DNA of 36,315 nt, from NCBI RefSeq assembly GCF_937906425.1, contig NZ_CALCYR010000174.1:1-36315 (forward strand), in the 5' to 3' direction. The stretch comes from an uncultured Methanobrevibacter sp. (GTDB lineage: Archaea; Methanobacteriota; Methanobacteria; Methanobacteriales; Methanobacteriaceae). Shown here one piece after another: positions 1 to 27,061 of this stretch; within the stretch, counting starts at the first letter, position 1; the number at the start of each line of letters is the position of its first letter. The notes under the pieces were generated by a model, which was given only the letters and a program-made list of their open reading frames with translations, was not told the DNA's origin and made no database searches. The translations under genes and the position numbers were made by a program.

Positions 1-3000
1 GAACTGGTTACAATCAATTTCTCACTGTTGTTTTCAACTGCAAGGTAATTGTCATTACCCATGTATTTAGCTGAAATCTCATAGACATCAGAAGCAAGAC
101 CATTAATTACAATGCTTCCTTCACCATTTTCATCCAATTCAACAGCATAAGCAATTCCATCAACCCTTACAAGAACAACTCCATAAACTGGCTCATCAGA
201 GTTACCAATTACCTTAACAGTAATTGTAGCAGGAGTGTTGTAAACATATTCACCGCCAGTGACCTCAAGGACAGCATCACTAGCCTTTTCAACTGCAATG
301 CTTCCTAAAGCATTGGCAACAAGATAGTTGTCACTTACAAATTCTACATAACTTACATAATCACCGGCACTTAGGTTTTCAAATTCAGCTTGACCACTAC
401 CATTAATTACAGTTACATTCTTAACGGTTCCGTTTACATTGATTGTAGCGTTTCCGTTTAAAAGAGCCCCTTCAAGACCGCTTACAGTAATGTTTACAAC
501 AGCCACTTCACCATAATCAATAGTGACATTTTCAACAGCAATGTCAACCTTAGAGTCTGAAGCCTTGCTTACTTCAACAGTCACATTATCCTCAACAATG
601 GAAGGATCATAATCAGTGCTGTTAAACATTACATCAATTGTGTATGTGCCAACATCCAAAATGCCGAAGTTATAAGTTCCTACACCATCAGCAACACTTA
701 CGTCAATCCATTCTCCACCATTAATTCTAATTTGAACGGTTCCGGTAATATTATATCCTTCTGAATCAACAAGACTGATGTTTGCAATAAGATCATTGCC
801 GTAAACAATATCAGAAGCGCTAAGATCAATTATCGCCTTATTGGATTTGACAATAATCAATTCCTCACTGTCGTTTAAAGCAGAGTTATAATTATCATCA
901 CCAAGGAATTTAGCCTCAATGCCATAAGTGCCTGAAGCAAGACCGGTAATGTTAAGATCTCCAATACCATCAACAACACTTACAGCATATCTGGTTCCGT
1001 TAACAACTACAACAACAGTGCCGTTTAAGAGAGTGCCTCCATTAGCAACTACCCTTACAAATACAGTAGCAGGGTTATTGTAGATGTATTCGCCACCAGT
1101 AAGTTCAAGAGTAGCATTAGCCTTAGCAACACTTACAGTACCACTTGCAACAGCGGTTTCGTAGTTATTGGAAATGAATTCAACGCTTGAGACATAATTG
1201 CCAGCTTCCAATCCGGCAAATTCAGCTTGAGCAATACCCTCAGTAACAGTTACAGTTTCACTGTGACCGTTAACTGTAATGGTTGCAGTACCATTCAATA
1301 GAGCACCTTCAAGACCGGTTACAGTAATGTTTACAACAGCCACATCACCATAATCAATAGTGACATTTTCAACAGCAATGTCAACCTTAGAGTCTGAAGC
1401 CTTGCTTACTTCAACAGTCACATTATCCTCAACAATGGAAGGATCATAATCAGTGTTGTTAAACATTACATCAATTGTGTATGTGCCAACATCCAATTTG
1501 CCGAAGTTGTAGCTTCCTACACCATCAGTAACACTTACATCAATCCATTCTCCGCCATTAATTCTAATTTGAACGGTTCCGGTAATATTGTATCCTTCTG
1601 AATCAACAAGACTGATGTTTGCAAGAACATCATTGCCATAAACAACATCCTCAGATACTAAATCAATTATAGCCAATTTGGAACTGGTTACAATCAATTT
1701 CTCACTGTTGTTTTCAACTGCAAGGTAATTGTCATTACCCATGTATTTAGCTGAAATCTCATAGACATCAGAAGCAAGACCATTAATTACAATGCTTCCT
1801 TCACCATTTTCATCCAATTCAACAGCATAAGCAATTCCATCAACCCTTACAAGAACAACTCCATAAACTGGCTCATCAGAGTTACCAATTACCTTAACAG
1901 TAATTGTAGCAGGAGTGTTGTAAACATATTCACCGCCAGTGACCTCAAGGACAGCATCACTAGCCTTTTCAACTGCAATGCTTCCTAAAGCATTGGCAAC
2001 AAGATAGTTGTCACTTACAAATTCTACATAACTTACATAATCACCGGCACTTAGGTTTTCAAATTCAGCTTGACCACTACCATTAATTACAGTTACATTC
2101 TTAACGGTTCCGTTTACATTGATTGTAGCGTTTCCGTTTAAAAGAGCCCCTTCAAGACCGCTTACAGTAATGTTTACAACAGCCACTTCACCATAATCAA
2201 TAGTGACATTTTCAACAGCAATGTCAACCTTAGAGTCTGAAGCCTTGCTTACTTCAACAGTCACATTATCCTCAACAATGGAAGGATCATAATCAGTGCT
2301 GTTAAACATTACATCAATTGTGTATGTGCCAACATCCAAAATGCCGAAGTTATAAGTTCCTACACCATCAGCAACACTTACGTCAATCCATTCTCCACCA
2401 TTAATTCTAATTTGAACGGTTCCGGTAATATTATATCCTTCTGAATCAACAAGACTGATGTTTGCAATAAGATCATTGCCGTAAACAATATCAGAAGCGC
2501 TAAGATCAATTATCGCCTTATTGGATTTGACAATAATCAATTCCTCACTGTCGTTTAAAGCAGAGTTATAATTATCATCACCAAGGAATTTAGCCTCAAT
2601 GCCATAAGTGCCTGAAGCAAGACCGGTAATGTTAAGATCTCCAATACCATCAACAACACTTACAGCATATCTGGTTCCGTTAACAACTACAACAACAGTG
2701 CCGTTTAAGAGAGTGCCTCCATTAGCAACTACCCTTACAAATACAGTAGCAGGGTTATTGTAGATGTATTCGCCACCAGTAAGTTCAAGAGTAGCATTAG
2801 CCTTAGCAACACTTACAGTACCACTTGCAACAGCGGTTTCGTAGTTATTGGAAATGAATTCAACGCTTGAGACATAATTGCCAGCTTCCAATCCGGCAAA
2901 TTCAGCTTGAGCAATACCCTCAGTAACAGTTACAGTTTCACTGTGACCGTTAACTGTAATGGTTGCAGTACCATTCAATAGAGCACCTTCAAGACCGGTT

Positions 3001-3415
3001 ACAGTAATGTTTACAACAGCCACATCACCATAATCAATAGTGACATTTTCAACAGCAATGTCAACCTTAGAGTCTGAAGCCTTGCTTACTTCAACAGTCA
3101 CATTATCCTCAACAATGGAAGGATCATAATCAGTGTTGTTAAACATTACATCAATTGTGTATGTGCCAACATCCAATTTGCCGAAGTTGTAGCTTCCTAC
3201 ACCATCAGTAACACTTACATCAATCCATTCTCCGCCATTAATTCTAATTTGAACGGTTCCGGTAATATTGTATCCTTCTGAATCAACAAGACTGATGTTT
3301 GCAAGAACATCATTGCCATAAACAACATCCTCAGATACTAAATCAATTATAGCCAATTTGGAACTGGTTACAATCAATTTCTCACTGTTGTTTTCAACTG
3401 CAAGGTAATTGTCAT
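1..3415. repeat. Apparently exact 1,680-bp (560-aa) intragenic tandem repeat, at least 2 copies
   Basis: Every line pair I compared between 1-1735 and 1681-3415 was identical (e.g. 1/1681/3361, 61/1741, 841/2521, 1621/3301). Divergence starts at 3416. Inside each unit, ~484-783 recurs almost identically at ~1321-1620 (offset 837). Confidence 0.95.
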
Positions 3416-6400
3416 CTCCATAGTATTTAGCTGAAATCTCATAGACATCAGAAGCTAAACCGCTGATGGAAATGTTTCCTTTACCCTCATTAAGAACAAT
3501 TGCATAATCCATGCCATTAACATTTACAACTACAACTCCATCTAATGCTTCACCGGAATTGCCGCTGACGCTTACATTGACAATGGCAGGCAAGCCATAG
3601 ACATAGCTTCCTCCACTTACTTCAAGTGTAGCATTAGCCTTGGCAACACTTACGGCAGCTGTTCCGCTGACAGCAGTGTAGTTGGCATTTGTAAATTCTG
3701 CAAAGGATATGTAGGTTCCTGCAAGTAAATCTTCAAATTCAGCTTGAGCAAAACCATCAATAACATCTACATTCTTAGTTGTTCCATTAACCTTGATGCT
3801 TACTGTTCCATTAAGACCAATGCCATTCTCATCCTTAACACTTACTTTGACTATAGCCACATCACCATATTTAATGCCTACATCCTCAACAGTGATTATT
3901 GCACTTGCAGCCTTTACGCTTACATTTACACTGTCTTCAACAATGGAAGGATCATATGCAGTGCTATTGAACATTACATCAATTCTGTAAGTGTCAACAG
4001 CTAAGTCAGTGAAGTTATAAGTTCCTACACCCTCAGCAACACTTACATCAATCCAATCTCCGCCATCAATTCTAATTTGAACGGTTCCAGTCAATCCATA
4101 AGTCTCATTATCAACAAGAGTGATGACTGCAGTAATGTTGTTTCCATAAATTACATCTTGAGCAGTTACATCAATGAAGGCGACTTTAGAGCTTGTAATG
4201 ATCAATTTCTCAGTATTGTTTTCAATGGCAGTGTAATTTTCATTTCCGACATATCTTGCACTGATGTTATAAACATCGGAAGCCAATCCATCAATGTCTA
4301 CACTTCCTTCACCATTTTCGTCCAATACAATAGCATAACTAATTCCGCTTACATTAAGGATTACAACACCGGTTAATGCTTCATTTGAATTACCTTTAAC
4401 TTCTACGCTTACAGTGGCTGTGTATCCATATACATAGGTTCCGCCATTTACTATAAGGGTAGGTTCAGCCCTATCCACTGTTACAGTACCGCTTTCAAAT
4501 CCTGCATCATAGTTTTCATTGATGAAGAGAACATCTGAGGTGTATGCGCCTGCAGCAAGACCTGTGAAATTGGCTTGACCTATACCATCGACAACATCCA
4601 CTTCAATAGTTTTTCCATCCACTGTAATGGTTGCAGTACCATTCAATGGAGCTCCTTCAAGACCTGTTACAGTAATGTTTACAGTAGCGTTTTCACCATA
4701 GTAAATTCTTACATCCTCAACTATAATGTCAATGGATGAATCTACCTTAGCAACTGTTACGCTAGTGTTTGCAGTTACATTATCAGGAACAAAGCTTGCA
4801 TTTACAAATTCAACATCAATGGAGTAGACCGCTGCATCCAATTTACCGAAGTTGTAGCTTCCTGCACCATCAGTAACACTTACATCAATCCAATCTCCAC
4901 CATTAATTCTAATTTGAACGGTTCCGCTTAAGTTATATCCTTCACCATCTACAAGACTAATATTTGCAATTACGTTCTTGCCATAAATCACGTCTTGAGA
5001 GCTTACATTAAGAATTGCAAGTTTGGATCTTGTAATGATCAGGTTTTCAGTGTTGTTTTCAACAGGGGCATAATTATCATCACCAATGTATCTTGCAGCA
5101 ATATTATATCTATTTGAAGCAAGACCTGTAATTTCAACACTGCCCTTACCATTTTCATCCAATACAACAGCGTAATCAACATCATTTACATTTACTACAA
5201 CAACACCGCTTAATGCCAAACCATCATTACCTCTTACGGTAAGATTGACTATGGCTACAGTGCCGTATTCATATTCTCCACCAATTACTTCAAGGCTAGC
5301 GTTAACAGCTCTTGCAACTACTACAGAACCTGTTCCATTTGTACTTGTGTAGTTTACATTGCTAAACTCTACATAGGATACATAAGTGCCTGCAAGCAAA
5401 TCAGCGAAATCAGCTTGGGCAACACCCTCAAGAACATTTGCATTCTTAGTTGTTCCATTAACCTTGATGCTTACTGTTCCGTTAAGACCAACACCATTGA
5501 TGTCAGTTACATTGACCTTGACTATAGCCACATCACCATATCCGATGCTTACATCCTCAACCTTAATGATTACTTCATCAGCATAAACATGAACCTCTGT
5601 ACCGTTTACAACAGTTGCAGGATCATATGCATCATTGCTAAAGCTTACATTAATGGTGTAGTTTCCTACAGCCCATTTACCGAGATCAATTTCAAGTTTG
5701 CCATTGTCTATCGCTACATTTTCCCAGCTTCCAATACCTTCAACGGTAATGTTTACAAATCCTGTAATATTGTATCCTTCACCGTCAACAAGGATGATTG
5801 TAGCAGTCACATTGTTTCCGTAAACAAGATCAAGAGCGCTTACACTTATGAATGCATCCTTGGAACTTGTAATATGCAATTTCTCAGTGTTGTTTTCAAC
5901 AGCCTTATAATTCTCATCACCAAGGTATTCTGCACTAATGTCATAGGTGCTTGAAGCAAGTCCCTTAATGTATAATTCTCCAGTTCCATTACTGAGTGTA
6001 ATTGCATATGTGGTTTCATCAACAGAGACAAGAACAGTTCCGTTAAGGAATTCTCCATCATTGCCGGTTACGGTAACATTGATTCTGGCACTTGTGTTGT
6101 AAGGATATGAACCGCCGCTTACATAAAGGCTAGCGTTTTGAGCCTTTCTCACAATCACAGAACCTGAAGCGAAACCAGGAGCATAATTGTCATTAGCAAA
6201 TACTACATTGGAGACATAACTGCCTGCATTCAAGTTTTCAAAGAGAGCTTGACCGGTACCGTTAACAACATTTACATCACGAGTGGTTCCGTTTACGGTA
6301 ATGTTAGCCTTACCGTTAAGTCTTTCATTGTCAATTCCGATAACAGTAATGTTTACAATTGCAATTTCACCATAGGAAATGTCCACATTCTCAACAGTAA

Positions 6401-21400: not shown

Positions 21401-24400
21401 TATAAAATTTATTATCGGTTAAGGTACAGTTTTCAGCCATTCTTAAGAATACAGCACCACCACGACCACCAGTTGAAGGGTCTAGAGCGTTTTCATTATA
21501 TACAGCAGTGTTTGAAATGAATGTACAGTTTGTAATGTTACCTCCAGTATCTCTCCAGAGAACAGCACCACCGTCACCACCGCTTACCTCATCATAAACT
21601 TGATATTGAACACGGTTTAAAGCGGAGTTGTTTATGAATACTGTATTGGAAATAACACCATCTGCACCAGCCCAATGGATAGCTCCACCACTACGGTTAG
21701 CACTGTTATTTATAAACTTGGAATCTGATACAACACCAAAGTCAGCACCATCATACCAATAGATAGCACCACCGCCAGCTCCGGCAGTGTTGTTTATAAA
21801 GTTGGAAGATAAGAAACTGGAATTGGAACTGTTTCTAATGAATACAGCACCACCACGACCACCTTTATCATCAAATCCTGAATTTGCATTATATACAGCA
21901 GTGTTGAATGTAAAGTTACACTTAGTGATGGTTGCATTATCACCGTGCCATGCAATAGCACCACCGTTACCACCGGTAATGTTATTTGCCTCGAATGTAT
22001 TTGTGTGAACCTTACCGCTTGCAGTGTTGTTTTCAAATACTGAATTTGATACTGTACCATGCATTCCTAACCAGTACATTGCTCCTCCGGAACTTCCAGC
22101 TGTGTTGTTTATGAATGTTGCATTGTTCACAATACCATATCTTGCACCGGTATAGAACTCGACAGCTCCTCCAAGGTTGCCTGCAGTGTTGTCGATGAAG
22201 ATGTCATCCTCAAGGACGCAATAGAAAGCCTCTCTCAGGAAGACCGCTCCTCCACGACCGCCTGTATTGTTGCTTGCGCAAGTGCTGTTGTGGACAGCCT
22301 CGTTTGAAATGAAGGTACAGTTTGTAATGTTTCCGCGAGTACCTCTCCAGAGGATAGCACCACCGTCACCACCGGTTTCTTCTACATATACTACATATTG
22401 AACAAGGTTTTTTGCAGTGTTGTTTATGAATGTTGAATTGTAGACTGTACCGTTTTCACCAGCCCAGTGAATAGCTCCTCCGCTACGGCCAGCTGTGTTG
22501 TTTTCAAACCATGAATTTTGGATGGTACCGTTGTTGGCATCACCATACCAGTAGATCGCACCTGCATCACCTTCAGCAGTGTTGTTGATAAAGTTGGAAG
22601 TACATATTTGGGTATTGGAACTGTTTAAGAGAATGATTGCTCCTCCACGTCCGCTGTTATCAAATGTTGCATTGCGGACTGCAGTGTTGTTTGTAAAGTT
22701 ACAGTTGGTGATTGTTGCATAGTCTCCAATCCATCCTATAGCACCACCGTCACCACCGGACTTGTCACCGTCAATAAGATTGGAAACTTGACCTAGAGCC
22801 CTGTTGTTTTTAAAGATTGTGTTTGAAATTGTAAGATAATCCTCTTCACCATAGATAGCTCCAGCTGAACCGTATGAAGTGTGGTTTTCAAATACACAAT
22901 CCTCTATTATCAAGTTTGCACCTTCACAGTAGATTGCTCCTCCAAGGTTGTCTTCGTTGAATCCATCTGATCTGTGTGTGTAGTTTGTTACACCGTTTAC
23001 AAAAGTAATGTTTCTCAATACAACATTGTCTGCAGTAATATTGAATATTCTTGAAAAGTGCAATGCGTCAAGAGTGAAACCGTTACCGTTAATGATAAGT
23101 GTGGCGTTTATGTACATCTGACCGTCGTCATTGTAATAATCATCCTGAGTGCTGTCATATGTGTATGTGTATGAACGTGTCAGGTTAAGTTCAGTACGTC
23201 CACGGGAAATTGCAGCATCAATTAAACCTTGAAGAACTGTAAAGTTTCCTCTTGGATCAAATACTTCAAATGTTGTGTTGAACTGTTTGTAGAGGTATCG
23301 ATCTTCAGAGAATCCGAATATTACAGTGAAATTTCCTTCCCTCTCGCTTGCAAGGATAAATGAAATGACGCCGTCTACAAAATCATTGTCTCCAGTAGGA
23401 ACTGAATCGGTAGGATATGTGTAAGTACGGTATTCATCTGTGAAGTTGTATTTGTATGTAACCTTACCGTTTCTACTTTTTGTAGCATCAGAAGGAGCAT
23501 ATACAGTAATTGTACCTGTGAAACCCTTGATAGCAAGTTCCCAATCGATGTCGTAATCGTCATTGTCAAGGAAATAGGATTCTACAATAAATTCTCTGTC
23601 ACCGAGTTTACCTGTAACCTTCTCTGTGGAATTTCTTTCAATACCGTCTCCCTTGAACAAGTCATAATCAACATATGCGGTAGTGGTATCTATTAGAACA
23701 TAAGCTCCACCACCATTGTAGGAAGCAATATTTTCTTTGAATGTTGAATTGGCAATCTGGGTAACTCTTCCATCGTTGAGGTAGGCTCCTCCACCATTTT
23801 GAGCTGTGTTGTTTTCAAGGGTACAGTTTGTAATTGTGTTTGAATTGTCTGCACCTCTGCCGCTGTCATAGATAGCACCACCATTTGTACCTGCACTGTT
23901 GTTTAGGAAATTACAGTTTTTGACATTTTGCTGGTTTGAGTCAAGGTACAATGCACCTCCAACACCTGATTTTGCACTGTTGTTAGTGAAGTTACAGTTG
24001 TCTACGATACCGTTGTCACTGTTAAACCATACTGCACCTGCGGAAACAGTAGCTGTGTTGTTTGTGAAAACAGTGTTTGTGAGATTTGCCTTAGCCGCAT
24101 TGTAAAGGTCAATTGCACCTCCGTTGTTTGCGCTGTTGTTTATATAGTTTTGCTTGTCTATGATTATGCCTTCACCGCCATACCAGTACAGACCTCCTCC
24201 ATACCCGGCTGAGTTGGCTGTGAAGTTCATGTTTGTGAGGTTTATGTTTGAAGCGGTTCCAGATATTGCACCTCCGCTGCCGTATGCAGAATTGTTTGTA
24301 AATAATAAATTATAGAATTTGGAAAAGTCATTAGATGAACCTGAACCGATTGACAATGCTCCACCGTCTCCTGTAGTAGCCTTGTTATCTGTAAAGTTTA

Positions 24401-26681
24401 TATTGTAAACATTTAAATCATTACCTGAAACATATAATGCACCTGCACTGCCACCAGTGTTATTGTAGAATCTTAAATCATAAATTTTTCCCTCAACAAG
24501 CCATGGCACGTAAGCTGCACCGCCTGATAATGCTGCGCTGTTGTTTGTAAAGTTACAGTTTGTAATAAGCCAATTCTTATAAAGGTTGTTTAAGTTCTCG
24601 TAGTTGTTACTAAAGAGACTTGTTGCAATAGCTCCACCAGACCTTCCAGCAGAGTTATTGTAGAATTTGATGTTTTGGAAACTTAGATTAGCATCTCCGG
24701 CAGCATGATAGAAGTAGAATGCACCACCATACCTTGCAGCATAGTTGTCTGTAAAGTTACAGTCCCTAATGTCTATGTCATAACAGTAGTCCAAGAGAAT
24801 AGCACCATTTGCGGAAGCATTGTTTCCTTCAAACTTACAGTATCTGAATATTATGCCGTTTCCTCTGTTAATACCGACTGCACTTCCACCATATGAATCT
24901 GAAAGTGTGGAATTGTTTTTTGTAAAATTACAGTATAATATTTGAACATCAGTGTAGGAATTAGCCAGTTGTGCTGAATATAAATGGATTGCTCCACCTG
25001 AACCTGCATAGTTGCTGTCGAAATTATTGTTTGTTATTCTGATGGTTTCTCCATTCCTTGCAAAATAAATGGATCCTCCTTCATTATCCGCATTATTTCC
25101 AGTGAAGTTGGAATTAGTTACAGTGATTGTTTTAGCATTTTGACCAAAGGATAATGCTCCACCGGTTGATCCTGAGTTATCAGTAAATTTACAGGAGTTG
25201 ATTTGAATATTTTCAGGCTCATTGATTGCATAAACAGCACCACCGCTGGTAATAGCTTCATTTGATGTGAAGTTACAATTTGTAATTACCTCATTGGCGA
25301 CTCCATAACCTAAAAAGATACCTGCACCATTATTAGCTTGATTATCTTCAAATATATTATTGGTGAATGAAGTTCCATTTGCATTCCAGTAGATGGCTCC
25401 TCCATTGGAAACACCAGTATTGTTGATGAATTTGGAATTAGTAATCCTTGAAGAATCACTTGCACTATATGGTGCATATAATGCGCCTCCAAAGTATGCG
25501 GAATTGCTGTCAAATACACAATTGTCTACAACAGCCCTAGCTACAGTGTTAAATCTTATAGCTCCGCCTCTACCTTCATCATCTTCATCAGAACTTTCTG
25601 CCTTGTTGCCTGTGAAATTGGAATTTTGGATGTTTACCGGATTGTCAGTCTTATAAATCATGATTGCACCTACAACTTGTCCGGTATTATTATCAAAATT
25701 ACAGGAATTTATTGAAATTGTGCCGAAACTTATGTAAAGAGCAGCCCTATTTGAAGCAACATTTCCAGTGAAATTACTGCCTGTAATTGTACAAGTTTGA
25801 CCGTAGTTGGTATTAGAACCATATATTGCAGAACCATATGTACCAATATTTCCATCAAATCTACAGTTGCTTATGGACAAACCTACATATCTTTGTACAT
25901 ATATTGCTCCACCATAACTACTTGCAGTATTATTTGTGAAAGTACAATTGGAAAAAGTCCATGTTCTGTAAGTGTTACTAGAAGTACCATAAGCGCATAC
26001 AGCCGCACCATTTCCAGAACATAAATTGTTTATAAACTGACAGTTGTTGAATGTCAGGGTACATCTGCTATCTGCATAAACAGCTCCGCCATCATTTTGA
26101 CCAGTTCCAGCATTCCTAAAGATTATATTATTAAATGTAATAGTCCTTTGTCCAGTAATATAAAATATCTGTCCACGAGCATTAGCATCAAGAATATGAT
26201 TATTACCATTTATAGTAAGATCTTTATTAATTGTAATCCTACTATAGTCTGCAGTGTTAGTGCCTACAGTGTAATCTTGTGTTAAAGATTTGGTATTTCC
26301 ATTTTGGTTAATAAGTGTCTGCAAATTAGCAAGAGTATCACTTAACTTATTAGCCCCTAAATTGCTTTCAGATTTTGAACTCGCCTTTACAATCTCCTGT
26401 TCAGAATAACCCTTGTCCTCATTGAGCTCTCCTGAATCATTCTCTCCTATTAAATTACTTGAATCATCGATGGAGACATCCAGATCTTCATCTTGATTCT
26501 CTTCAACAGTCCTAGTATCCGCAATATCATTTGATACAGTATCCTTAACAATATTCGTGTCACTATTATTGTAATCTGAAATTATTGTATCGGATGACTG
26601 ATCATCTATAGCTGATACAGCCCCTATTATTAAAAAGAATAATAGAATTAAAATGATTAAAAAATTCTTTTTGAATTTCAT
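1..26681 (-). CDS. Giant secreted adhesin-like protein (ALP), >=8,893 aa, 3'-partial; GGA-repeat beta-helix head plus Ig-like repeat stalk
   Basis: I translated the minus strand by hand. It starts MKFKKNFLIILILLFFLIIGAVSA|IDDQSSD at ATG 26681 (alternative ATG 26684) behind an AAAGGGGA RBS-like motif. The same frame reads as sensible protein at 14,900-15,000 (LNGRREKTLNSSSQAEDEISELSPGTYDITAIYNGNEYF) and at the window edge (GNDNYLAVENNSEKLIVTS). The ORF track lists no ORF in this frame, which fits a frame with no stop in the window. The AVSA-type signal peptide, GGAIY repeats and Y-x-G-D-x-N-Y Ig repeats are typical of Methanobrevibacter ALPs. Confidence 0.93.
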   Translation of the reverse strand, partial: MKFKKNFLIILILLFFLIIGAVSAIDDQSSDTIISDYNNSDTNIVKDTVSNDIADTRTVEENQDEDLDVSIDDSSNLIGENDSGELNEDKGYSEQEIVKASSKSESNLGANKLSDTLANLQTLINQNGNTKSLTQDYTVGTNTADYSRITINKDLTINGNNHILDANARGQIFYITGQRTITFNNIIFRNAGTGQNDGGAVYADSRCTLTFNNCQFINNLCSGNGAAVCAYGTSSNTYRTWTFSNCTFTNNTASSYGGAIYVQRYVGLSISNCRFDGNIGTYGSAIYGSNTNYGQTCTITGSNFTGNVASNRAALYISFGTISINSCNFDNNTGQVVGAIMIYKTDNPVNIQNSNFTGNKAESSDEDDEGRGGAIRFNTVARAVVDNCVFDSNSAYFGGALYAPYSASDSSRITNSKFINNTGVSNGGAIYWNANGTSFTNNIFEDNQANNGAGIFLGYGVANEVITNCNFTSNEAITSGGAVYAINEPENIQINSCKFTDNSGSTGGALSFGQNAKTITVTNSNFTGNNADNEGGSIYFARNGETIRITNNNFDSNYAGSGGAIHLYSAQLANSYTDVQILYCNFTKNNSTLSDSYGGSAVGINRGNGIIFRYCKFEGNNASANGAILLDYCYDIDIRDCNFTDNYAARYGGAFYFYHAAGDANLSFQNIKFYNNSAGRSGGAIATSLFSNNYENLNNLYKNWLITNCNFTNNSAALSGGAAYVPWLVEGKIYDLRFYNNTGGSAGALYVSGNDLNVYNINFTDNKATTGDGGALSIGSGSSNDFSKFYNLLFTNNSAYGSGGAISGTASNINLTNMNFTANSAGYGGGLYWYGGEGIIIDKQNYINNSANNGGAIDLYNAAKANLTNTVFTNNTATVSAGAVWFNSDNGIVDNCNFTNNSAKSGVGGALYLDSNQQNVKNCNFLNNSAGTNGGAIYDSGRGADNSNTITNCTLENNTAQNGGGAYLNDGRVTQIANSTFKENIASYNGGGAYVLIDTTTAYVDYDLFKGDGIERNSTEKVTGKLGDREFIVESYFLDNDDYDIDWELAIKGFTGTITVYAPSDATKSRNGKVTYKYNFTDEYRTYTYPTDSVPTGDNDFVDGVISFILASEREGNFTVIFGFSEDRYLYKQFNTTFEVFDPRGNFTVLQGLIDAAISRGRTELNLTRSYTYTYDSTQDDYYNDDGQMYINATLIINGNGFTLDALHFSRIFNITADNVVLRNITFVNGVTNYTHRSDGFNEDNLGGAIYCEGANLIIEDCVFENHTSYGSAGAIYGEEDYLTISNTIFKNNRALGQVSNLIDGDKSGGDGGAIGWIGDYATITNCNFTNNTAVRNATFDNSGRGGAIILLNSSNTQICTSNFINNTAEGDAGAIYWYGDANNGTIQNSWFENNTAGRSGGAIHWAGENGTVYNSTFINNTAKNLVQYVVYVEETGGDGGAILWRGTRGNITNCTFISNEAVHNSTCASNNTGGRGGAVFLREAFYCVLEDDIFIDNTAGNLGGAVEFYTGARYGIVNNATFINNTAGSSGGAMYWLGMHGTVSNSVFENNTASGKVHTNTFEANNITGGNGGAIAWHGDNATITKCNFTFNTAVYNANSGFDDKGGRGGAVFIRNSSNSSFLSSNFINNTAGAGGGAIYWYDGADFGVVSDSKFINNSANRSGGAIHWAGADGVISNTVFINNSALNRVQYQVYDEVSGGDGGAVLWRDTGGNITNCTFISNTAVYNENALDPSTGGRGGAVFLRMAENCTLTDNKFYNNTAGNLGGAIEFYEGAKNVVLDRSEFINNTANCSGGAIYWLGTNGTVSNSNFLNNTAVGSLRILMFETEDGNISGGNGGAIAWHGNDATITNCNFTLNTAIADYSESVMNRFNDTGGRGGAVFIRNSSDSEFIGSNFINNTAGADGGAIYWFDGANNGALNNSYFENNTANRSGGAIHWAGADGVISNSTFRYNKALNIVQYQVYEELTGGDGGALLWRDTGGSITNCTFEFNEAIYNSTCASNNTGGRGGAIFLRQAIDCTLSDNVFINNTAGNLGGAIEFYEGAKDGFLNNSVFINNTANCSGGAIYWLGTNGTVANSQFINNTAVGAVRILMFTSEEGNISGGNGGAIAWHGNVANITNCNFINNTAISDYSGNQFNDTGGRGGAVFIRNSSNSHFIGSNFTDNFAGADGGAIYWFAGADNGTIGDSNFLNNTANRSGGAIHWAGENGTVYNSTFSYNKALNLIQYSVYNEYTGGDGGAILWRGTAGNITNCTFTFNEAVFNDTLGYGNNSTGGRGGAVFLREAKNCVLADDVFINNSAGNLGGAVEFFDGAENGTIDNSLFINNTAKRSAGAVYWVGHNGTIHLSNFTNNTATGEVRIDQFEEKIGGDGGAIVWHGDTANLTDSIFINNKAIYNATLKSGGRGGALFLRNSTNASFNNLTFMDNIAGSDGGAIYWYEGAGDGLVNNSYFENNNATRSGGAIYWTGHNGTISHTDFINNTALGEVEIGSIGFGGDGGAVIWTGSEGTIEFCTFNDNDAVHRGGAIYLQKLSDESACENTSVINSSFIFNTAGTNGGAIDWYEGAHNGLVANSSFIDNYANRSGGAIYWNGENGTIANSEFINNDAFGLVNETDRDKGGDGGAVIWTGSYGLIENSTFSLNDAVRRGGAIYLQKANDATECLNTTVNNCTFTNNTAGTNGGAIDWFEGAHYGVLANSTFENNTANRSGGAVYWNGLNGTISNTTFTNNDAHGLVNGTIVDGGDGGAVIWTGSYGIIEYSTFSFNDAARRGGAIYLQKATNEEVCNDTAVNNCTFINNTAGTNGGAIDWYEGAVNGSVSNSVFENNTANRSGGAIYWNGEYGSIINSTFNNNDAHGLVNGTIEDGGDGGAVIWTGSYGLVENSTFSFNDAVRRGGAIYVQKATEDGECLNTTVNNCNFTNNTAGTNGGAIDWYEGAHNGLVANSTFINNTAKDGNGGGIFWNGLNGTIESSTFINNSALGVLDNGESQARGGAAFVEGNYTTVKDSSFDSNYAGNNASAICFEGSYYGKVLSSNFTNNIAGFNAGAICFAQGSMYGEIHDSNFINNTASGNAGAVGFQGSNGNITNTSFINNTALGTRGEGAGRGGATVVLGNNTTYFNCTFDNNVAKRAGGAVFFNGENDSLINCSFTNNKAMDLGIETRQGGYAGAILLTGNGARIENDTFENNSALYSGGAIAVNDTGTAIINSNFTNNTAAELGGAIYWNASVGELNNSRFDYNHAKSGGAIYVGERADNAIINGIVFDHNSASENGGAIFAEGIDDVEILNSNFTYNSADHGGAIYVSDGDDFKVDLSIFENNTARDDGALHWVGKNGTISNSNFTNNSATEDGGAIGLAGESSLIYNVTFTDNSAGVNGGAIVWLGTENDTITNTTFKTNTASNGGAIHWRDGAKGIIANSTFESNIALEYGGAIMIENNTNGSIVNSSFTSNTVGAYVQGNSYGDGGAIYLDNSNGLNITDSNFTKNSAIVSGGSIAANNANNTIMDNINISDSLSDRYGGSITWTNSSNITINNTNISNSSANLLAGAILLNESSANVDNIIIDRSNVNYGRAGAIYANGNITITNAELKNLSSLNDNATAILFDGGNSSLVDSNLSAKNPIVISPDTSVYLTRNNATETETGDYTVYNEGSLWLDKNTFDNVIINLGSIETQTYTVVLDNSSVTVMQGESVVLNASIKDDNNNTIVVPNSFKFDVINGGHTYVDSTYVGKMNYGTLLETNQGLYVVSATEGGLKKNEVKTGLLYVTAETTLNINVEKTNEGQQVDITATLSPNEPFVFAGNVTFTVNGTTYDPVQIQNNTATLTLHDLPAYTYEVSAVFEGDEHHTAANNRTTFIVNLREVDLSISVEDIVYGQTATAIASVPGANGTVTFILNGRREKTLNSSSQAEDEISELSPGTYDITAIYNGNEYFKSTFNETSFTVEKANTTISAIANPESAEYMADQVINVQLNSSATGRVKVVVNGFEPYYADVGANGLAVVNVTSLPIGEYSEINVTYSGDNNFNANETTVAFEVTMKVTPISSFDLNVTTEDIIYGADENIAVSIAGVQGAPAPTGTIKVLVDGEEIGNHSMSNLIFIKVKPSADPEHNVTVIYSGDDIYITKTVTATFKVDLADVSSMVVSAQNIIYRNPETISLFVADDAIGTVTIKLNDVPYGEPIALSGGRASLTIPNGDSNYLQAGEYNVSVTYNGDSNYNPKEYNTSFNVSKAVSDIAVNTTNFNYKEELKFTLNLSAVNASGSVLVQIINANNGSVVKTDTVDMATGTKELSYNDVIDAGTYRVNVEYFNDLNYNNSSNSAYFIIHKIDTSISESSSNIEYGNNEIITINSFDDTVSGTVSLVVNGTYYDPVTITDNKAVFTIVKPNAGEYNFSAIYNGDNNYNSKTINGSFNVSKINSGWTASYDAEIYYGNNLIITINDVESDLTGNFKLYLDEQLLGNRTIGLDELSFTIIKPSADDKHNISIVYSGDINYVIKQIDGSFKVLPAQPEGMAVSASDITFCDDETIEVYVADDATGSIELYLDTVLKDTQTLENGRAIFVLSDLNAKDNYLVQANFISSGNYSNKNVSSSFNVSKAVSNVEVYGRDIRISQDETISVVLTDPKVHGNVNITIRNSSNEIVNSTVIADFTQTDIHGVSSIFENLPLGLYNVTVEYYGDPNYENSTDEYEFVVSFMSVEPIDINFTDTEYVSVITPHDATGNVTITLSTAADTYTFTKNLSEASVDGDIRNLTFDLSYTNVTLPAGRYFVFANYTGDEHFEQTEVKNPFIVDKAVSNIVIEVNDIQYGDDELINVTVYGKNGILIDSGFVTLFIEGTKINQTIPVSNGVARFNASGLVYKDTKYVVNATFNGNNDYNASSELAYFMVNKADIADMTVSPTNISFGTNEIITVTVGDKNASGNVYLVINDSETTVYTSSKVALVNGIAEFTIEGLAIKNYTVVAHYVDDDNYNDKELSADFEVYKIAPTIIISPINITYGAEEVIDITIPNSDVSGNITIKIGEVTKSVNMTGGHGQIVFEGLNVANYYVTASYSGDPNYDDMNNLPVEFVVSQANPAGINIVPSNLTYGNNEIIRVTVLPVEGGVNPTGNVTINVDIGTEIITQTKDLTDGAVSFDLGILNASNYRVFASYNGDVRYRSIAANEPFHINKTVPAMAIELENITYGANEYINVTVSGVDVAGAEKPSMFVSIKVNGTVYEMSKEIGADGVASFTIEGLGAGEYEVNASYSGDTNYNASSISGTFKVSPTDLTLRIDLNDTYYHDEQNLVVYVEGVDSGTVSIVFGDYTKSAAIESGKASFVIQGGDRPYLEVANGYRINITCTPNDPNYGVVETTRTFNVYKSASSIAVSAETIEYLAMENITISLNNYNASGKLNITIRNASSDEIIRSEVIDPFNETSEYIYQVSGLDVGNYTVSLNYTDDHNYLDSNASAEFEVTLINVQLSEVSPDIVYGNDEKINVSISGGATGKVTVTVDGVDLDPVTITEAIAGDRELIFTVSKPGVDSRHNITVTYSGDNNYNTKTITGEFAVSKNDTFEMSEVSPNIDYSENETITITLPNDATGTVYLVVNGSYYTPIGIDENHQAVFNITAPLAGNYEFTAFYSGDGNYTNKSVSGEFAVARNEVTLTQSSAATIVYGADETITVSIDGIEGVLDPTGTIKVLVDEVEIGNHSVSDLVFVMVKPVVDVQHNITVIYSGDNNYNAKTITGAFAVTKAEVVMSEVSPDIVYGADEEITVTIAGDATGTIIVKVNGTQVGETITIATLSEEDKTFTVSKSKPEGGEYTVELVYSGDTNYETKTITGGFVVSPVDPAISEDSPDIVYGADETIAITVPEGASGTLTVTVNNSTGIVDTKVLIIGTDGLEVKLVKPNAGSYTIEIVYSGCANYTTKTITGEFVVSPAAVVIAVENVTINYGDAARVNITVKDTTGQVINGSANITVNGTSKPVTVTNGVAYEDFTALLAGNYVSEVVFTNPNYNTTLAYGTVRVDRATNASLVVIGGDYPYGTIAQVNVSVHGNDDLALSGVVIVTVNNVDYAVILNASGQGTVNITGLASGIYEINATYIGDENYANLVNDTEKLNITKSKIAFVSVDAEDVVYGEDLIATVKLVDDEGKLLNGTVSISIDDGVSWISIEVENGVKDYNFGVRDADDYVINVSFADTYYEPSKVVNSTEVTVSPADVVIAVENITIKYGGVATVNITVKNTTGQLISGSANITVNGENKPVSVIGGIAEANFTGLEVGKYISDIVFEGPNYITTSASGTVTVIRATNATLEVIGGDYEYGTTATISVKVKGNSNEDLTGVVIVKLNGTDYAIVLNSSGEGKLDVAGLASGIYDINATYIGDSNYENVVNNSEKLNITSSKKAYLSITASDVDYGNNVTATIVLVDGEGNNLTGTLNISVEGIGSWENVAIGNGKLEIDLGKWAVGNYTINVVVNEEYDNAPVNDSCDVSVKAVAPVIAVENISIAYGTNARVNITVTGVDGAPLNGTAIITVNGQSETVTVTDGVAEKDFGVLPVGKYVSEVEFTNANYTAASAAGYVNVTKALDAVLEVSGGDYEYGTLANVNVTVKGNDGTMLNGTVVIIVNGTKYAVSVANGIGEVNISGLASNIYDISAEYLGDDNYKAVVNNSEKLNITRSKTAIIDVSAENVIYGDPLIAHIKLLDGEGYNLTGTVQIRIDGGEWIDVTVTEGVGTYDFGSLAVGNYTIDVKFEDSYYDPALVNDTTNASVSLMGDNQLNITVENVDISYGEIAIVNITVIGIDNERLNGKANITVNGTTRDVNVVNGTGQALFENLNAGSYVSNVVFANDNYAPGFASGSVIVRKAQNASLYVSGGSYPYNTSARINVTVTGNDGEFLNGTVLVSVDETTYAITLSNGTGELYIKGLASSTYDISAEYLGDENYKAVENNTEKLHITSSKDAFISVSALDLVYGNNVTATIILVDGEGYNITGFVNITVEGIGSWENVAIDNGKLEIDLGKWAVGNYTINVSFSNDAYDPATVVNGTEVHVYADEVIIKVEDVSIGYGDVAIVKVNVTDINGVGLNGTVSIKVNGTTKNANVLEGVAQADFADLLAGTYVSYVEFSNVNYTSTNGTGSVVVARAVNASLEVIGGEYEYGTVAIVNLTVRGNDGLALSGVVVVNVNDVDYAVVLDENGKGSVEITGLASNRYNIAARYIGDDNYAPVENNTENLIITRSKLAILNVSSQDVIYGKNVIANISLVDGEGYNLSGTVQIRINGGDWIDVSVTDGAGSYNFGKLDAAVYSIDVEFVNASFVPDNVTANTSVTVAKVDSSIDIIVEDVRIYYGENATVNITVTGLEGAPLNGTATITVDGKTIEVDVVDGIGQANFTGLAAGAYTSDVLFINENYDAGFESGTVTVDRAEPTLIVNGGTYVYGYTATVSVEVKGNSNEALTGVVILNVSGISYAIVLDENGEGSVDIDGLASDVYNISARYVGNENYTAIENNTEKLIITSSKVAFIDVTAQDVIYGNNITAVITLVDNETYGLTGTVQIRIDGGDWIDVSVAEGVGTYNFTDLAVDTYRIDVMFNSTAYDPSIVEDSVNVSVKAASAIITVEDVGIKYGDVAIVKVSVKDENGIGLNGTVSIKVNGTTKNVDVIDGFAQAEFEDLLAGTYISFAEFTNANYTAVSGTAAVSVAKANATLEVSGGSYVYGLPAIVNVSVSGNSGEALDGVVVVNVNGMDYAIVLNEGKGNISISGLASDVYEISAKYYGDDNYLAVENNSEKLIVTSSKLAIIDLVSEDVVYGNDVLANISLVDSEGYNITGTVQIRINGGEWIDVSVTDGVGSYNFGKLDVGTYTIDVMFNNTDYDPSIVEDNVTVEVSKASDSKVDIAVENVTIDYGDVAVVNITVTGLEGALLNGTATITVNGHSETVTVTEGIAQAEFAGLEAGNYVSSVEFISNNYETAVASGTVSVAKANATLELTGGEYIYNNPATVFVRVVANGGTLLNGTVVVVVNGTRYAVSVVDGIGDLNITGLASGTYGIEAKFLGDDNYNSALNDSEELIIVKSNKAIIDLSASDIVYGNDLIANISLVDSEGYNITGTVQIRINGGEWIDVSVADGVGTYNFGILDVGTYTIDVMFNSTDYDPSIVEDNVTVEVSKASDSKVDIAVENVTIDYGEVAVVNITVSGLEGALLNGNATINVNGTVKNVTVINGSGQAEFENLSAGDYVSYVEFVSDNYLVANALGSIAVEKASDAVLEVTGGEYVYNTPATITVKVIGNSDEPVYGVVLVRVDGIAYAVELDENGEGSIVINGLASDVYEISAKYMGNDNYLAVENNSEKLIVTSSKLAIIDLVSEDVVYGNDVLANISLVDSEGYNITGTVQIRINGGEWIDVSVTDGVGSYNFGKLDVGTYTIDVMFNNTDYDPSIVEDNVTVEVSKASDSKVDIAVENVTIDYGDVAVVNITVTGLEGALLNGTATITVNGHSETVTVTEGIAQAEFAGLEAGNYVSSVEFISNNYETAVASGTVSVAKANATLELTGGEYIYNNPATVFVRVVANGGTLLNGTVVVVVNGTRYAVSVVDGIGDLNITGLASGTYGIEAKFLGDDNYNSALNDSEELIIVKSNKAIIDLSASDIVYGNDLIANISLVDSEGYNITGTVQIRINGGEWIDVSVADGVGTYNFGILDVGTYTIDVMFNSTDYDPSIVEDNVTVEVSKASDSKVDIAVENVTIDYGEVAVVNITVSGLEGALLNGNATINVNGTVKNVTVINGSGQAEFENLSAGDYVSYVEFVSDNYLVANALGSIAVEKASDAVLEVTGGEYVYNTPATITVKVIGNSDEPVYGVVLVRVDGIAYAVELDENGEGSIVINGLASDVYEISAKYMGNDNYLAVENNSEKLIVTS
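17800..19300. repeat. ~369-372-bp (123-124 aa) intragenic repeat, ~4 copies
   Basis: The ccaccacg motif (RRGGAIY/HRGGAIY) occurs at ~17992, 18361, 18730 and 19102, and the flanking blocks are near-identical. Confidence 0.85.
19250..22850. repeat. ~800-bp intragenic repeat (pairs of ~400-bp half-units), 4-5 copies
   Basis: The RSGGAIHWAG-encoding block occurs at ~20080, 20881, 21691 and 22483. GRGGA recurs about every 400 bp from ~19461 to ~22648. Confidence 0.8.
23700..26340 (-). other. Beta-helix module 1 (pectin-lyase-like / polymorphic-membrane-protein GGA repeats)
   Basis: Cap TLANLQTLINQNG...ITINKDLTINGNNHILDANARGQIF, followed by recurring N-C-x-F-x-x-N-x-A...GGAIY coils. Boundaries are approximate. 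Confidence 0.8.
26610..26681 (-). other. Sec signal peptide of the giant ALP
   Basis: Basic n-region (MKFKK), hydrophobic h-region (FLIILILLFFLIIG), AVSA cleavage motif, then an acidic low-complexity linker. Confidence 0.85.
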
Positions 26682-26689
26682 CATATCCC

Positions 26690-26815
26690 CTTTATCATAT
26701 TTTTTTAAAAATACTTATCAGATTTTTTTTAAAAAGTTTATCAAATTTTTTTTAAAAAATACTTATCAGATTTTTTAAAAATATTTATCAAATTTTTTTT
26801 AAATATTTATCACTT
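26690..26815. repeat. Six-copy 22-25-bp tandem repeat (TTATCA + T-tract/A-tract) directly upstream of the ALP RBS
   Basis: ttatca at 26692, 26715, 26738, 26763, 26785 and 26807, separated by T(6-8)A(3-6) tracts. Confidence 0.85.
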
Positions 26816-26897
26816 TTATTTAAATAATCCACTTTTTTATTCTTAATGTGAGACAATAAAATAGGAAATATCAACTTAAAAAAATTAAATGTCATTA

Positions 26898-27013: not shown

Positions 27014-27061
27014 AAAGATTATGCCTATGAAACCCCTTTCAATATTGAACCAACATTAAAC

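What the first reader, a model, noticed from the sequence alone, without database searches (positions are those of the whole stretch)
1..26681. Giant archaeal surface protein (>=8,893 aa, still open at the window edge) missed by the ORF track
Seen: signal peptide and the same reading frame at the start, middle and window edge. The ORF track shows only antisense shadow ORFs here. Known: Methanobrevibacter adhesin-like proteins use these domain types, and halomucin (about 9,100 aa) is among the largest described archaeal proteins. Inference: no C-terminal anchor has been reached by position 1, so the full protein probably exceeds 9,000 aa. About 55 Ig-like domains (5,100 aa at ~93 aa each) could form a tether on the order of 200 nm presenting beta-helix heads to host glycans, protozoa or syntrophic partners.
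Basis: partly seen in the sequence, partly recalled or inferred. Interest (0 to 1): 0.88.

Follow-up and report, generated by a model that had tools for sequence, protein, structure and literature searches.

The report
Giant methanogen adhesin-like surface protein gene
This is a real but incompletely assembled gene for an enormous (roughly 9,000 residues or more) adhesin-like surface protein of a rumen-type methane-producing archaeon: an extreme example of a protein family that is already described, not a new kind of thing.

Summary
Window 3..26684 (minus strand) is one stop-free frame of 8,894 codons that runs off the contig start. It encodes a signal peptide, two capped right-handed beta-helix blocks (about 3,300 aa) and exactly 55 Ig-like (Big_3_5) domains.

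This is the published Group IA layout of Methanobrevibacter adhesin-like proteins (ALPs). ALPs over 8,000 aa are already in print (PMC13658579), and public relatives reach 7,893 aa and 56 Ig domains.

The length is not settled:
- The contig ends 55 nt into a third copy of a perfect 1,680-nt tandem repeat.
- A second contig path joins the frame in phase at aa 5563-5581.
- The right end of the contig, from 30528, is Lachnospiraceae DNA, most likely a chimeric join.

A 5'-truncated ORF on contig C296 (1,530 aa, with a stop) is the best candidate for the missing C-terminus. That would give about 10,600 aa, but it is unproven.

The adhesin function is inferred. No reads could be examined. This scan has noted similar giant ALP-like proteins before on other DNA.

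The parts
26691..26828 (-). Six tandem copies of a 23-nt unit (TGATAARTATTTTTAAAAAAAAT in gene orientation), ending just before the GGGG ribosome-binding stretch and the ATG. Candidate promoter or regulatory array.
   Evidence: Tandem Repeats Finder; sequence read. No other contig of the genome has more than 2 approximate copies.
26604..26684 (-). Start codon and signal peptide, or N-terminal hydrophobic helix (aa 1-27, MMKFKKNFLIILILLFFLIIGAVSA).
   Evidence: Translation. The n/h/c layout is by inspection; no signal-peptide predictor was available.
26346..26603 (-). Acidic Asp/Ser/Asn-rich linker (aa 28-113).
   Evidence: Translation; composition (24 D+E against 9 K+R in aa 1-113).
23685..26345 (-). 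First right-handed beta-helix module (RBH1, aa 114-1000), with an N-terminal helical cap.
   Evidence: Pfam Beta_helix and Chlam_PMP. AF2 model of aa 105-1140: mean pLDDT 81.3, a helix cap followed by short strands to about aa 1000. Weak beta-helix matches in the PDB. Cap motif at aa 158.
23280..23684 (-). Spacer of about 135 aa between the two beta-helices (aa 1001-1135). Fold not resolved.
   Evidence: pLDDT below 50 over most of this stretch. The stretch is conserved in the 7 closest relatives (alignment A3).
16005..23279 (-). Second beta-helix block (RBH2, aa 1136-3560). It has one cap motif only, a rung period of 26-27 aa, and internal super-repeats of 131-135/264-270 aa and 123 aa.
   Evidence: Pfam, 13 Beta_helix stretches. 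369-nt tandem repeat at 17773-19194. Autocorrelation and cap search.
15345..16004 (-). Transition region from beta-helix to stalk (aa 3561-3780).
   Evidence: Translation. Collinear with relatives P0003, P0008 and P0009 through this boundary.
8925..15344 (-). Ig-like (Big_3_5) domains 1-23 (aa 3781-5920), diverged from one another.
9943..9997 (-). 55-mer (aa 5563-5581) that is also the last 55 nt of contig C153. This is an assembly-graph branch where a second in-frame upstream path (C296:8993-end plus C153, 4,283 aa) joins.
3..8924 (-). Array of about 10.6 three-domain super-repeats (279 aa each; Ig domains 24-55, aa 5921-8894). Units are 45-72% identical to each other, rising to 100% at the end.
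   Evidence: AF2 model of one unit: three beta-sandwich domains, pLDDT 94.8.
1..3415 (-). Perfect tandem repeat of period 1,680 nt (560 aa, 6 Ig domains): 2 copies plus 55 nt, ending at the contig end. Copy number unresolved.
   Evidence: Window 1-1735 is identical to 1681-3415. The terminal 55-mer of the contig recurs at 1681 and 3361.

Best explanation
The frame is the 5' 26.7 kb of a gene for a giant adhesin-like protein (ALP, Group IA layout) of a Methanobrevibacter-type methanogen. The protein is exported by a Sec-type N-terminal signal.

Its N-terminal third forms two long right-handed beta-helix rods. At a rung period of 26-27 aa that is about 125 rungs, or roughly 60 nm using a recalled rise of 0.48 nm per rung. 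These rods are the likely ligand-binding (glycan-binding) heads.

The remaining two thirds are a string of at least 55 Ig-like beta-sandwich domains acting as a semi-rigid extender of the order of 200 nm. That figure uses a recalled rise of about 3.5 nm per domain, taken from bacterial giant adhesins.

The missing C-terminus most likely holds the cell attachment. In this genome that would be a Lys-rich Big_1/Big_3_5 module that could bind the acidic pseudomurein wall. The heads would then be presented far from the cell, to bind hydrogen-producing partners (protozoa, bacteria, fungi) or host and plant glycans.

The distal part of the stalk is a young, homogenised cassette array (6 Ig domains per 1,680-nt unit) whose copy number probably varies.

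Shown here: the frame, the domain content and their order, the folds (predicted), the family relationship, and the repeat structure. Inferred: export, topology, anchoring, binding, and the true length.
For: - Frame: 8,894 codons without a stop.
- Pfam: Chlam_PMP 228.5 bits, Beta_helix 223.3 bits (13 stretches), Big_3_5 176.5 and 921.7 bits.
- Ig-like domains: 55, all after all beta-helix sequence.
- AF2 models: the three-Ig unit has pLDDT 94.8. Its best extended PDB matches are extender regions of giant bacterial adhesins: 6xi1 (TMq 0.50), SiiE 2yn3, MpIBP 5irb. The head model has pLDDT 81.3 with a capped beta-helix, and weak matches to PL6 lyases, phage tailspikes, PfbA and pertactin.
- Relatives: 207 proteins of 4,891-15,565 aa match the N-terminal 1,100 aa. 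Every name given is Methanobrevibacter or Methanosphaera.
- Collinearity: aa 2-4054/4271 run collinear with the closest relatives at 37-38% identity.
- Composition typical of ALPs: N 11.7%, T 8.8%, and 445 N-X-S/T sequons against 172 expected.
- Neighbour: methanogenesis marker 12 is 80-88% identical to same-genus genomes.
- C-termini: 68 of 120 giant relatives end in a hydrophobic tail, and others in Lys-rich Ig modules. All five C-terminal ALP fragments printed from this genome that carry Lys-rich ends stop in such a module.
- Function of the family: one ALP of M. ruminantium (Mru_1499) is reported to bind rumen protozoa, and six ALPs rise in co-culture with Butyrivibrio (review PMC10658910, passages).
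Against:
- The contig is demonstrably not clean: from 30528 it is 98.6% identical to a Lachnospiraceae contig.
- A second, equally in-frame upstream path enters the ORF at aa 5563-5581. The N-terminal 5,562 aa and the C-terminal 3,314 aa may therefore belong to different genes or strains.
- The final 560-aa unit is an exact duplicate that short reads cannot resolve.
- No orthologue of the N-terminal 1,100 aa was found in the 24 same-genus genomes searched (best 93.8 bits against 2,403 for self).
- The syntenic place in G014 holds no giant gene.
- Binding has never been shown for a beta-helix or Ig giant of this type. The ALP papers mostly treat the N-terminal helix as the anchor, which would reverse the proposed topology.
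Confidence: 0.8

Rival explanations
1. The 8,894-aa frame is an assembly chimera of two paralogous ALP genes, or two strain variants, joined in phase at the shared 55-mer (aa 5563-5581). In that case the real proteins would be 'aa 1-5562 plus an unknown tail' and 'C296:8993-end + C153 + window 9942..1' (7,597 aa or more).
For: The last 55 nt of C153 equal window 9943-9997, and the end of C296 overlaps the start of C153 by 55 nt. Both paths are stop-free and in phase: 4,283 aa upstream, and 7,597 aa with the downstream part. No second outgoing contig exists in the bin, so the topology is 2-in/1-out. The same assembly made at least one cross-organism join in this very contig. From aa 5930 the array resembles C296p (43-49%) and the last C153 domains (up to 43%) more than it resembles this ORF's own upstream domains (30-36%).
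Against: The four domains just after the junction (d20-d23) have their best matches in this ORF's own upstream domains (51%, 62%, 51%, 47%). They have no hit in C153 and only 29-38 bits in C296b. A 55-nt repeat is shorter than ordinary reads, so the assembler's path was probably supported by reads. This last point is an inference.
Confidence: 0.25
2. The protein is anchored by its uncleaved N-terminal helix, as assumed for most ALPs. The beta-helices would then sit at the wall and the Ig array would be the exposed, variable, interacting part.
For: The ALP papers report an N-terminal membrane-anchoring helix in 48 of the 52 Group I ALPs of two species (PMC11532034, passage). The most rapidly evolving, homogenised part of this protein is the distal Ig array.
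Against: The N-terminus ends in a small-residue VSA|ID motif, typical of a cleaved signal (by inspection). The closest relatives carry clear C-terminal attachment devices: a TM helix plus RRFKK, or Lys-rich modules. Bacterial giant adhesins whose stalk folds match best use the Ig string as an extender.
Confidence: 0.3
3. It is not an adhesin but a glycan-active enzyme (lyase or depolymerase) or a protective, heavily glycosylated coat, as proposed for halomucin.
For: The top structural matches of the head are PL6 alginate lyases, phage tailspike depolymerases and a mannuronan epimerase. The sequon density is 2.6 times the expectation (445 against 172).
Against: Those matches are weak (E 1e-4 to 1e-2, TMq 0.2 or less, 9-13% identity) and reflect the shared beta-helix fold. 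No enzyme family is found by Pfam or by PDB sequence search. An Ig stalk of about 5,100 aa makes little sense for a coat or an enzyme.
Confidence: 0.12

Closest known systems
Methanobacteriales adhesin-like proteins, Group IA (Gupta and Seedorf 2024, PMC11532034; Tan et al. 2026, PMC13658579), e.g. the largest M. smithii ALP (4,691 aa, seven RBH and 18 ABD domains)
   Same: An N-terminal hydrophobic helix, then beta-helix (RBH) blocks, then a run of Ig-like (ABD/Big_3_5) domains. Asn/Thr-rich and repeat-rich. Many paralogues per genome: 63 ORFs with such Ig domains here.
   Different: About twice the length of that example. The second beta-helix block is about 2,425 aa with a single cap, against 1,236 aa quoted as the longest RBH in the two species studied. 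It has 55 or more Ig domains, against 'more than 40' in print. The stalk ends in a perfectly homogenised 6-domain cassette.
Public giant Methanobrevibacter 'Ig-like domain repeat' proteins (e.g. P0106 7,893 aa; P0120 7,643 aa with 56 Ig domains; M. millerae P0037 6,829 aa; M. ruminantium M1 P0098 4,929 aa)
   Same: The same architecture and domain families. Identity is 26-50% over the N-terminal 1,100 aa and Ig counts are comparable.
   Different: None of the 120 listed is as long. The nearest relatives (P0002-P0009, 45-50% identical) have 5,338-6,357 aa and 21-32 Ig domains. Ours has about 1,000 aa more beta-helix and a private three-domain super-repeat, whose best outside match among 1.84 billion representatives is 30% identical.
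Giant bacterial repeat adhesins with Ig-like extenders (Salmonella SiiE, Marinomonas MpIBP, Aeromonas RTX adhesin)
   Same: A rod of tens of tandem Ig-like domains that holds a binding region far from the cell. The predicted three-domain unit superposes best on these extenders.
   Different: Pfam finds no RTX repeats, no type I secretion signal and no Ca-tandemer signature in the window. The heads are beta-helices. The host is an archaeon with a pseudomurein wall. It works like these adhesins but is not a member of their family.
Chlamydial polymorphic membrane proteins and beta-helical autotransporter passengers (pertactin)
   Same: GGA(I/L/V)-type Chlam_PMP repeats (228 bits) and a beta-helix fold. 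Pertactin appears among the weak structural matches.
   Different: There is no outer membrane in the host, no autotransporter barrel was found, and the beta-helix is followed by an Ig stalk.
Halomucin of Haloquadratum walsbyi (9,159 aa; 'the largest archaeal protein known' at first publication, abstract of PMC4378361)
   Same: A secreted archaeal protein of about 0.9 MDa; ours is 942 kDa for the assembled part.
   Different: A different organism type and a different proposed role (protection against desiccation). No sequence comparison with halomucin was run here, so only size is compared.

Membership tests
Methanobacteriales adhesin-like proteins (ALP), Group IA | N-terminal hydrophobic helix (signal or membrane-anchoring domain) | tested here: met
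   aa 1-27, MMKFKKNFLIILILLFFLIIGAVSA. By inspection only; no predictor was run.
Methanobacteriales adhesin-like proteins (ALP), Group IA | One or more right-handed beta-helix (RBH) domains | tested here: met
   Pfam Beta_helix 223 bits in 13 stretches and Chlam_PMP 228 bits. AF2 head model with pLDDT 81.3. Beta-helix matches in the PDB.
Methanobacteriales adhesin-like proteins (ALP), Group IA | Repeated archaeal Big (Ig-like, Big_3_5) domains | tested here: met
   55 domains. Big_3_5 921.7 bits with 36 stretches in the C-terminal half. AF2 model shows three beta-sandwiches, pLDDT 94.8.
Methanobacteriales adhesin-like proteins (ALP), Group IA | All RBH domains precede all Ig-like domains, and no 'other' domain type is present | tested here: met
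   The last beta-helix motif is at about aa 3520 and the first Ig domain at aa 3781. No other Pfam family passes its cut-off. The missing C-terminus could still add another type.
Methanobacteriales adhesin-like proteins (ALP), Group IA | Asn/Thr-rich, repeat-rich composition | tested here: met
   N 11.7%, T 8.8%. Repeats.
Methanobacteriales adhesin-like proteins (ALP), Group IA | Encoded by a member of the Methanobacteriales | tested here: met
   Named relatives are all Methanobrevibacter or Methanosphaera. The neighbouring methanogenesis marker 12 is 80-88% identical in 15 of 18 same-genus genomes. Note that the contig also carries bacterial DNA from 30528.
Methanobacteriales adhesin-like proteins (ALP), Group IA | Adhesion to partner cells or host | not testable with these tools
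   Only reported for Mru_1499 (review passages).
RTX / type I-secreted giant Ig-repeat adhesins (SiiE, MpIBP, LapA type) | Tandem Ig-like extender domains | tested here: met
   Foldseek matches 6xi1 (TMq 0.50), 2yn3 and 5irb.
RTX / type I-secreted giant Ig-repeat adhesins (SiiE, MpIBP, LapA type) | RTX nonapeptide repeats and a C-terminal type I secretion signal | tested here: not met
   No such Pfam family in the 8,894 aa or in the candidate C-terminus C296p. The true C-terminus is unproven.
Chlamydia Pmp / autotransporter family | C-terminal outer-membrane beta-barrel translocator | tested here: not met
   No autotransporter domain in the window or in C296p. The host is a monoderm archaeon.

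The most novel reading that the evidence does not exclude
The gene continues, after more copies of the 1,680-nt cassette and a short unassembled piece, into contig C296 (ORF 3-4592: 1,530 aa, 17 Ig domains, a Lys-rich Big_1-type end and a stop codon). That would give a protein of about 10,600 aa or more with about 73 Ig-like domains, larger than halomucin and than any ALP listed here. It would have a length-variable stalk (cassette copy number), and expression possibly switched by the six 23-nt promoter-proximal repeats. It would lie in a tandem cluster with a second giant ALP (C296:8993 -> C153) that exchanges sequence with it.
Probability: 0.4. Interest if true: 0.55.

Novelty: new member of a known kind. 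Interest (0 to 1): 0.36.

Why it matters
ALPs make up about a tenth of some gut methanogen genomes and are the main candidates for how methanogens attach to hydrogen-producing partners, yet almost none has been studied. This gene marks the upper end of the family: about 0.94 MDa assembled and possibly over 1.1 MDa, with a predicted reach of a few hundred nanometres. It also shows how the stalk grows, by amplification and homogenisation of a six-domain cassette.

The practical lesson is just as useful. Such genes sit exactly where short-read metagenome assemblies break or mis-join, so sizes read from metagenome-assembled genomes need long-read confirmation. The protein's size alone does not make it a new kind of system.

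Tried and rejected
- **Public sequencing runs.** I looked for runs to check depth, junctions and expression.
- **Contig that continues the gene.** No other contig shares a 20-mer with the contig end or a 55-mer with it. The terminal 55-mer gave 0 matches in JGI metagenome contigs.
- **Orthologues.** None was found for the N-terminal 1,100 aa in the 24 same-genus genomes searched. The place syntenic to methanogenesis marker 12 in G014 holds only ORFs of 567 aa or less.
- **Solved structures by sequence.** 0 hits for the head and 0 for three stalk units.
- **Domain-by-domain identity to link C-terminal fragments.** Values of 35-50% between almost any pair were not decisive. A profile of the 279-aa super-repeat did discriminate.
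- **Known sorting signal.** The PTGNP-hydrophobic-RRFKK tail of relatives has no NCBIfam model and is not found in this genome (0 ORFs).
- **A pseudomurein-linked bacterial-type division cluster in a methanogen.** I considered this for mraZ-rsmH-ftsL-PBP and rejected it. The DNA is 98.6% identical to a Lachnospiraceae contig. The PBP was not found in the 24 same-genus genomes, apart from one 23.7-bit hit. A search of papers for pseudomurein, MraZ, penicillin-binding protein, Methanobacteriales and dcw listed pseudomurein papers with 0 occurrences of MraZ.
- **The junction in other assemblies.** 0 matches in JGI metagenome contigs.
- **Supplementary tables of the ALP papers.** These hold per-protein lengths and domain maps. 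I did not consult them, and they may name ALPs longer than those seen here.
Full report
**What is there**

The window is the whole of contig C174. At 36,315 bp it is the longest of 316 contigs in a 2.43-Mb draft genome with 30.8% G+C and an N50 of 10.6 kb. On the minus strand, 26684 down to 3 is one open frame of 8,894 codons with an ATG start and no stop, and it runs off the contig start. If open-ended frames are not listed, only five antisense ORFs of 100 aa or more appear in 1..26600, which explains the 'missed' gene.

**Anatomy**

The layout along the protein is as follows.

| Residues | Feature | Evidence |
|---|---|---|
| 1-27 | Sec-type signal peptide or hydrophobic helix | by inspection |
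| 28-113 | acidic linker | |
| 114-1000 | capped right-handed beta-helix (RBH1) | |
| 1001-1135 | spacer, fold unresolved | |
| 1136-3560 | second beta-helix block with a single cap motif (RBH2) | |
| 3781-8890 | 55 Ig-like domains | |

- Pfam gives Chlam_PMP 228.5 bits, Beta_helix 223.3 bits (13 stretches), and Big_3_5 176.5 and 921.7 bits.
- RBH2 has a rung period of 26-27 aa and super-periods of 131-135/264-270 and 123 aa.
- An HMM iterated on the protein itself finds exactly 55 Ig-like domains with a period of about 93 aa.
- From aa 5921 the domains form about 10.6 three-domain super-repeats of 279 aa. The units are 45-72% identical, rising to 100% at the end.
- The assembled part has a mass of 942 kDa, pI 4.15, 11.7% Asn, and 445 N-X-S/T sequons against 172 expected from composition.
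- AlphaFold2 models agree. The three-domain unit is three beta-sandwiches (pLDDT 94.8). Its best extended PDB matches are the extender regions of giant bacterial adhesins: 6xi1, SiiE and MpIBP.
- The head, aa 105-1140, is a helix-capped beta-helix (pLDDT 81.3; the spacer is below 50). It has only weak, fold-level matches to PL6 lyases, tailspikes, PfbA and pertactin.
- No solved structure is related by sequence.

**Whose gene is it, and is it known?**

The N-terminal 1,100 aa match 207 proteins of 4,891-15,565 aa (543 candidates scored, best 120 listed). Every source name is Methanobrevibacter or Methanosphaera, as 'adhesin-like' or 'Ig-like domain repeat' protein. The closest relatives (P0002-P0009, 45-50% identity) have 5,338-6,357 aa. 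The longest listed has 7,893 aa.

Among the 120 listed relatives, Ig-domain counts reach 56, with a median of 29 when this protein is included. Residues 2 to about 4,054-4,271 are collinear with three of the closest relatives at 37-38% identity, with about 1,000 extra residues of beta-helix in ours.

The neighbouring gene, methanogenesis marker 12, is 80-88% identical in 15 of 18 same-genus genomes.

Two papers describe exactly this family. One covers ALPs built from an N-terminal membrane helix, RBH and 'archaeal Big' domains, with Group IA defined as all RBH before all Ig (PMC11532034, passages). [quoted passage not shown] All sequence-testable features of Group IA are met. The kind is therefore known, and this is an extreme member.

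The gene is not conserved as an orthologue. In the 24 same-genus genomes searched, the best match to the N-terminal 1,100 aa scores 93.8 bits, against 2,403 for self. The place next to marker 12 in G014 carries no giant gene. The three-domain super-repeat is private too: among 1.84 billion representatives, the best outside hit to the 560-aa cassette is 30% identical.

**How far can the length be trusted?**

There are three problems.

1. *The contig ends in an unresolved perfect repeat.* Window 1-1735 is identical, base for base, to 1681-3415. The contig therefore ends with two copies plus 55 nt of a perfect 1,680-nt (560 aa, six Ig domains) tandem repeat. Contig ends across this genome overlap other contigs by exactly 55 nt (218 such links). 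The assembly thus behaves like a k=55 graph, and the contig stops at a self-loop. At least two tandem copies must exist for the loop to exist (an inference), but the true number is unknown.

2. *A second path joins the frame.* The last 55 nt of contig C153 equal window 9943-9997 (aa 5563-5581), and the end of C296 overlaps the start of C153. A second upstream path (C296:8993-end plus C153, 4,283 aa) is open and in phase. It would make a 7,597-aa protein with the same downstream part. No second outgoing contig is present.
   - For the assembled path: the four domains after the junction have their best matches in this ORF's own upstream domains (51, 62, 51 and 47%) and none in C153.
   - Against it: from aa 5930 the array resembles other fragments more than it resembles its own upstream domains.
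   - I put the assembled join at about 0.7-0.75.

3. *The contig carries bacterial DNA.* Window 30528-34511 is 98.6% identical (3,984 nt, 56 mismatches) to a 6.2-kb contig of a rumen Lachnospiraceae MAG. That contig's upstream genes are ychF and lgt, not marker 12. The break lies in an AT-rich repeat that shares a 16-mer with the bacterial sequence. So this assembly did produce at least one cross-organism join, or holds a very recent insert.

**The missing C-terminus**

Of the 120 giant relatives, 68 end in a hydrophobic tail, typically ...PTGNP-hydrophobic-RRFKK, and many of the rest end in a Lys-rich Ig module. Ours ends 4 aa after an Ig domain, so the end is missing.

In this genome, 0 ORFs carry the PTGNP-type tail. 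The C-terminal fragments C15, C84, C257, C296 and C302 all end in the Lys-rich module.

The ORF C296:3-4592 (1,530 aa, 17 Ig domains, Big_1/CarboxypepD_reg/Big_3_5, with a stop) is the best candidate for the missing end:
- Its first 36 aa match the cassette in register at 29 of 36 positions.
- Its first 113 aa match at 59 of 113, the same range as the array's own units against the cassette (53-62 of 113).
- It keeps the A-B-C three-domain order.
- A profile of the super-repeat scores it at 216.5 bits, against 109.4 for the next ORF in the genome.
- Among 144 of the 150 best public representatives, the next best scores 152.5 bits. The six that already had ids were not rescored. P0148 in that list is this very ORF.

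Its DNA differs from the cassette at synonymous sites and there is no k-mer overlap. A gap must therefore be assumed: about 150 aa if collinear, which is shorter than the 1-kb contig floor. With this tail the protein would have about 10,600 aa. I give this model about 0.4-0.5.

**How it most likely works**

Shown here: the domain order, the predicted folds, the family, and the cassette structure. Inferred: everything below.

- The protein is exported through Sec.
- It is probably attached by its C-terminus. In this genome that would be through the basic Ig module binding the wall.
- An Ig rod of the order of 200 nm then presents about 60 nm of beta-helix, a fold that commonly binds polysaccharides. 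These lengths use recalled per-domain and per-rung rises.
- The targets would be hydrogen producers or host and plant glycans. The only experimental precedents are Mru_1499 binding rumen protozoa and ALP induction in co-culture, both taken from review passages.

Rival readings are given with the evidence for and against each: N-terminal anchoring (0.3), an assembly chimera (0.25), and an enzyme or coat (0.12).

**Verdict**

This is a real ALP-type giant gene (0.9 that a protein of 7,500 aa or more of this type is encoded here). It is a new member of a known kind. Its size is near or beyond the family's published maximum but is not secured, and its function is inferred. Earlier notes of this scan on other genomes reached the same class for similar proteins. 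I did not test those notes.

Noticed in passing
window 30528-36315: The right end of the contig is Lachnospiraceae-type DNA carrying mraZ, rsmH, an ftsL-like gene, a class B penicillin-binding protein and an AAA_21 ATPase. It is 98.6% identical over 3,984 nt to a rumen Lachnospiraceae MAG contig (L017), which has ychF and lgt upstream instead of the archaeal gene. The PBP was not found in the 24 same-genus genomes searched. None of the 80 best genome loci is titled as an archaeon. Most likely a chimeric join at an AT-rich repeat; a real, very recent bacterial insert is not excluded (about 0.1).
   Followed up: partly
G000 contig C192 (locus L105 1-3100): The native neighbour of methanogenesis marker 12 in G014 is ilvC. 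Its homologue in this genome sits on C192:2025-3041. It is preceded by a fragment of a VirD4-like conjugation protein (CD1115 family) and a large serine recombinase, and the first 500 nt are 52.6% G+C. Both sides of the same archaeal intergenic region therefore run into bacterial-type DNA.
   Followed up: partly
window 26685-28524: A 1.84-kb intergenic region of about 22% G+C, with no ORF of 60 aa or more, upstream of the giant gene. It is packed with tandem arrays: 23 nt x 6 directly before the start codon (26691-26828), 42 nt x 2 (27058-27139), 43 nt x 3 (27534-27662), and units of 19/38/57 nt (28243-28452). There is no Rfam match. It may control expression, or phase variation, of the gene.
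   Followed up: partly
G000 contigs C296 (8993-15729) and C153 (locus L003): A second giant ALP gene with its own signal peptide. It is open for 4,283 aa across two contigs linked by a 55-nt overlap, and it ends on a 55-mer shared with the window's gene. It lies on the same contig and strand as the candidate C-terminus of the window's gene and an 880-aa ALP, which suggests a tandem ALP cluster.
   Followed up: partly
relatives P0008, P0037, P0067, P0073, P0090, P0106, P0112, P0120 and others (C-termini): Many giant relatives share a conserved C-terminal signal, [YH]-P-T-G-N-P followed by about 18 hydrophobic residues and R-R-F-K-K. It resembles a sortase or archaeosortase-type tripartite sorting signal. 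No NCBIfam model matched it, and no ORF of this genome carries it.
   Followed up: partly
window 28525-29154 (+): A 209-aa ORF between the giant gene and methanogenesis marker 12, with no Pfam or NCBIfam family. Proteins at 90% identity or more occur only on short contigs of public run assemblies. It has no counterpart next to marker 12 in five same-genus loci.
   Followed up: partly
whole genome G000: 63 of 1,265 stop-to-stop ORFs of 200 aa or more carry Ig-like ALP domains, and many are cut by contig ends. About 11 are N-terminal pieces and 7 are C-terminal pieces, so ALP genes are a main cause of the fragmentation of this assembly.
   Followed up: partly
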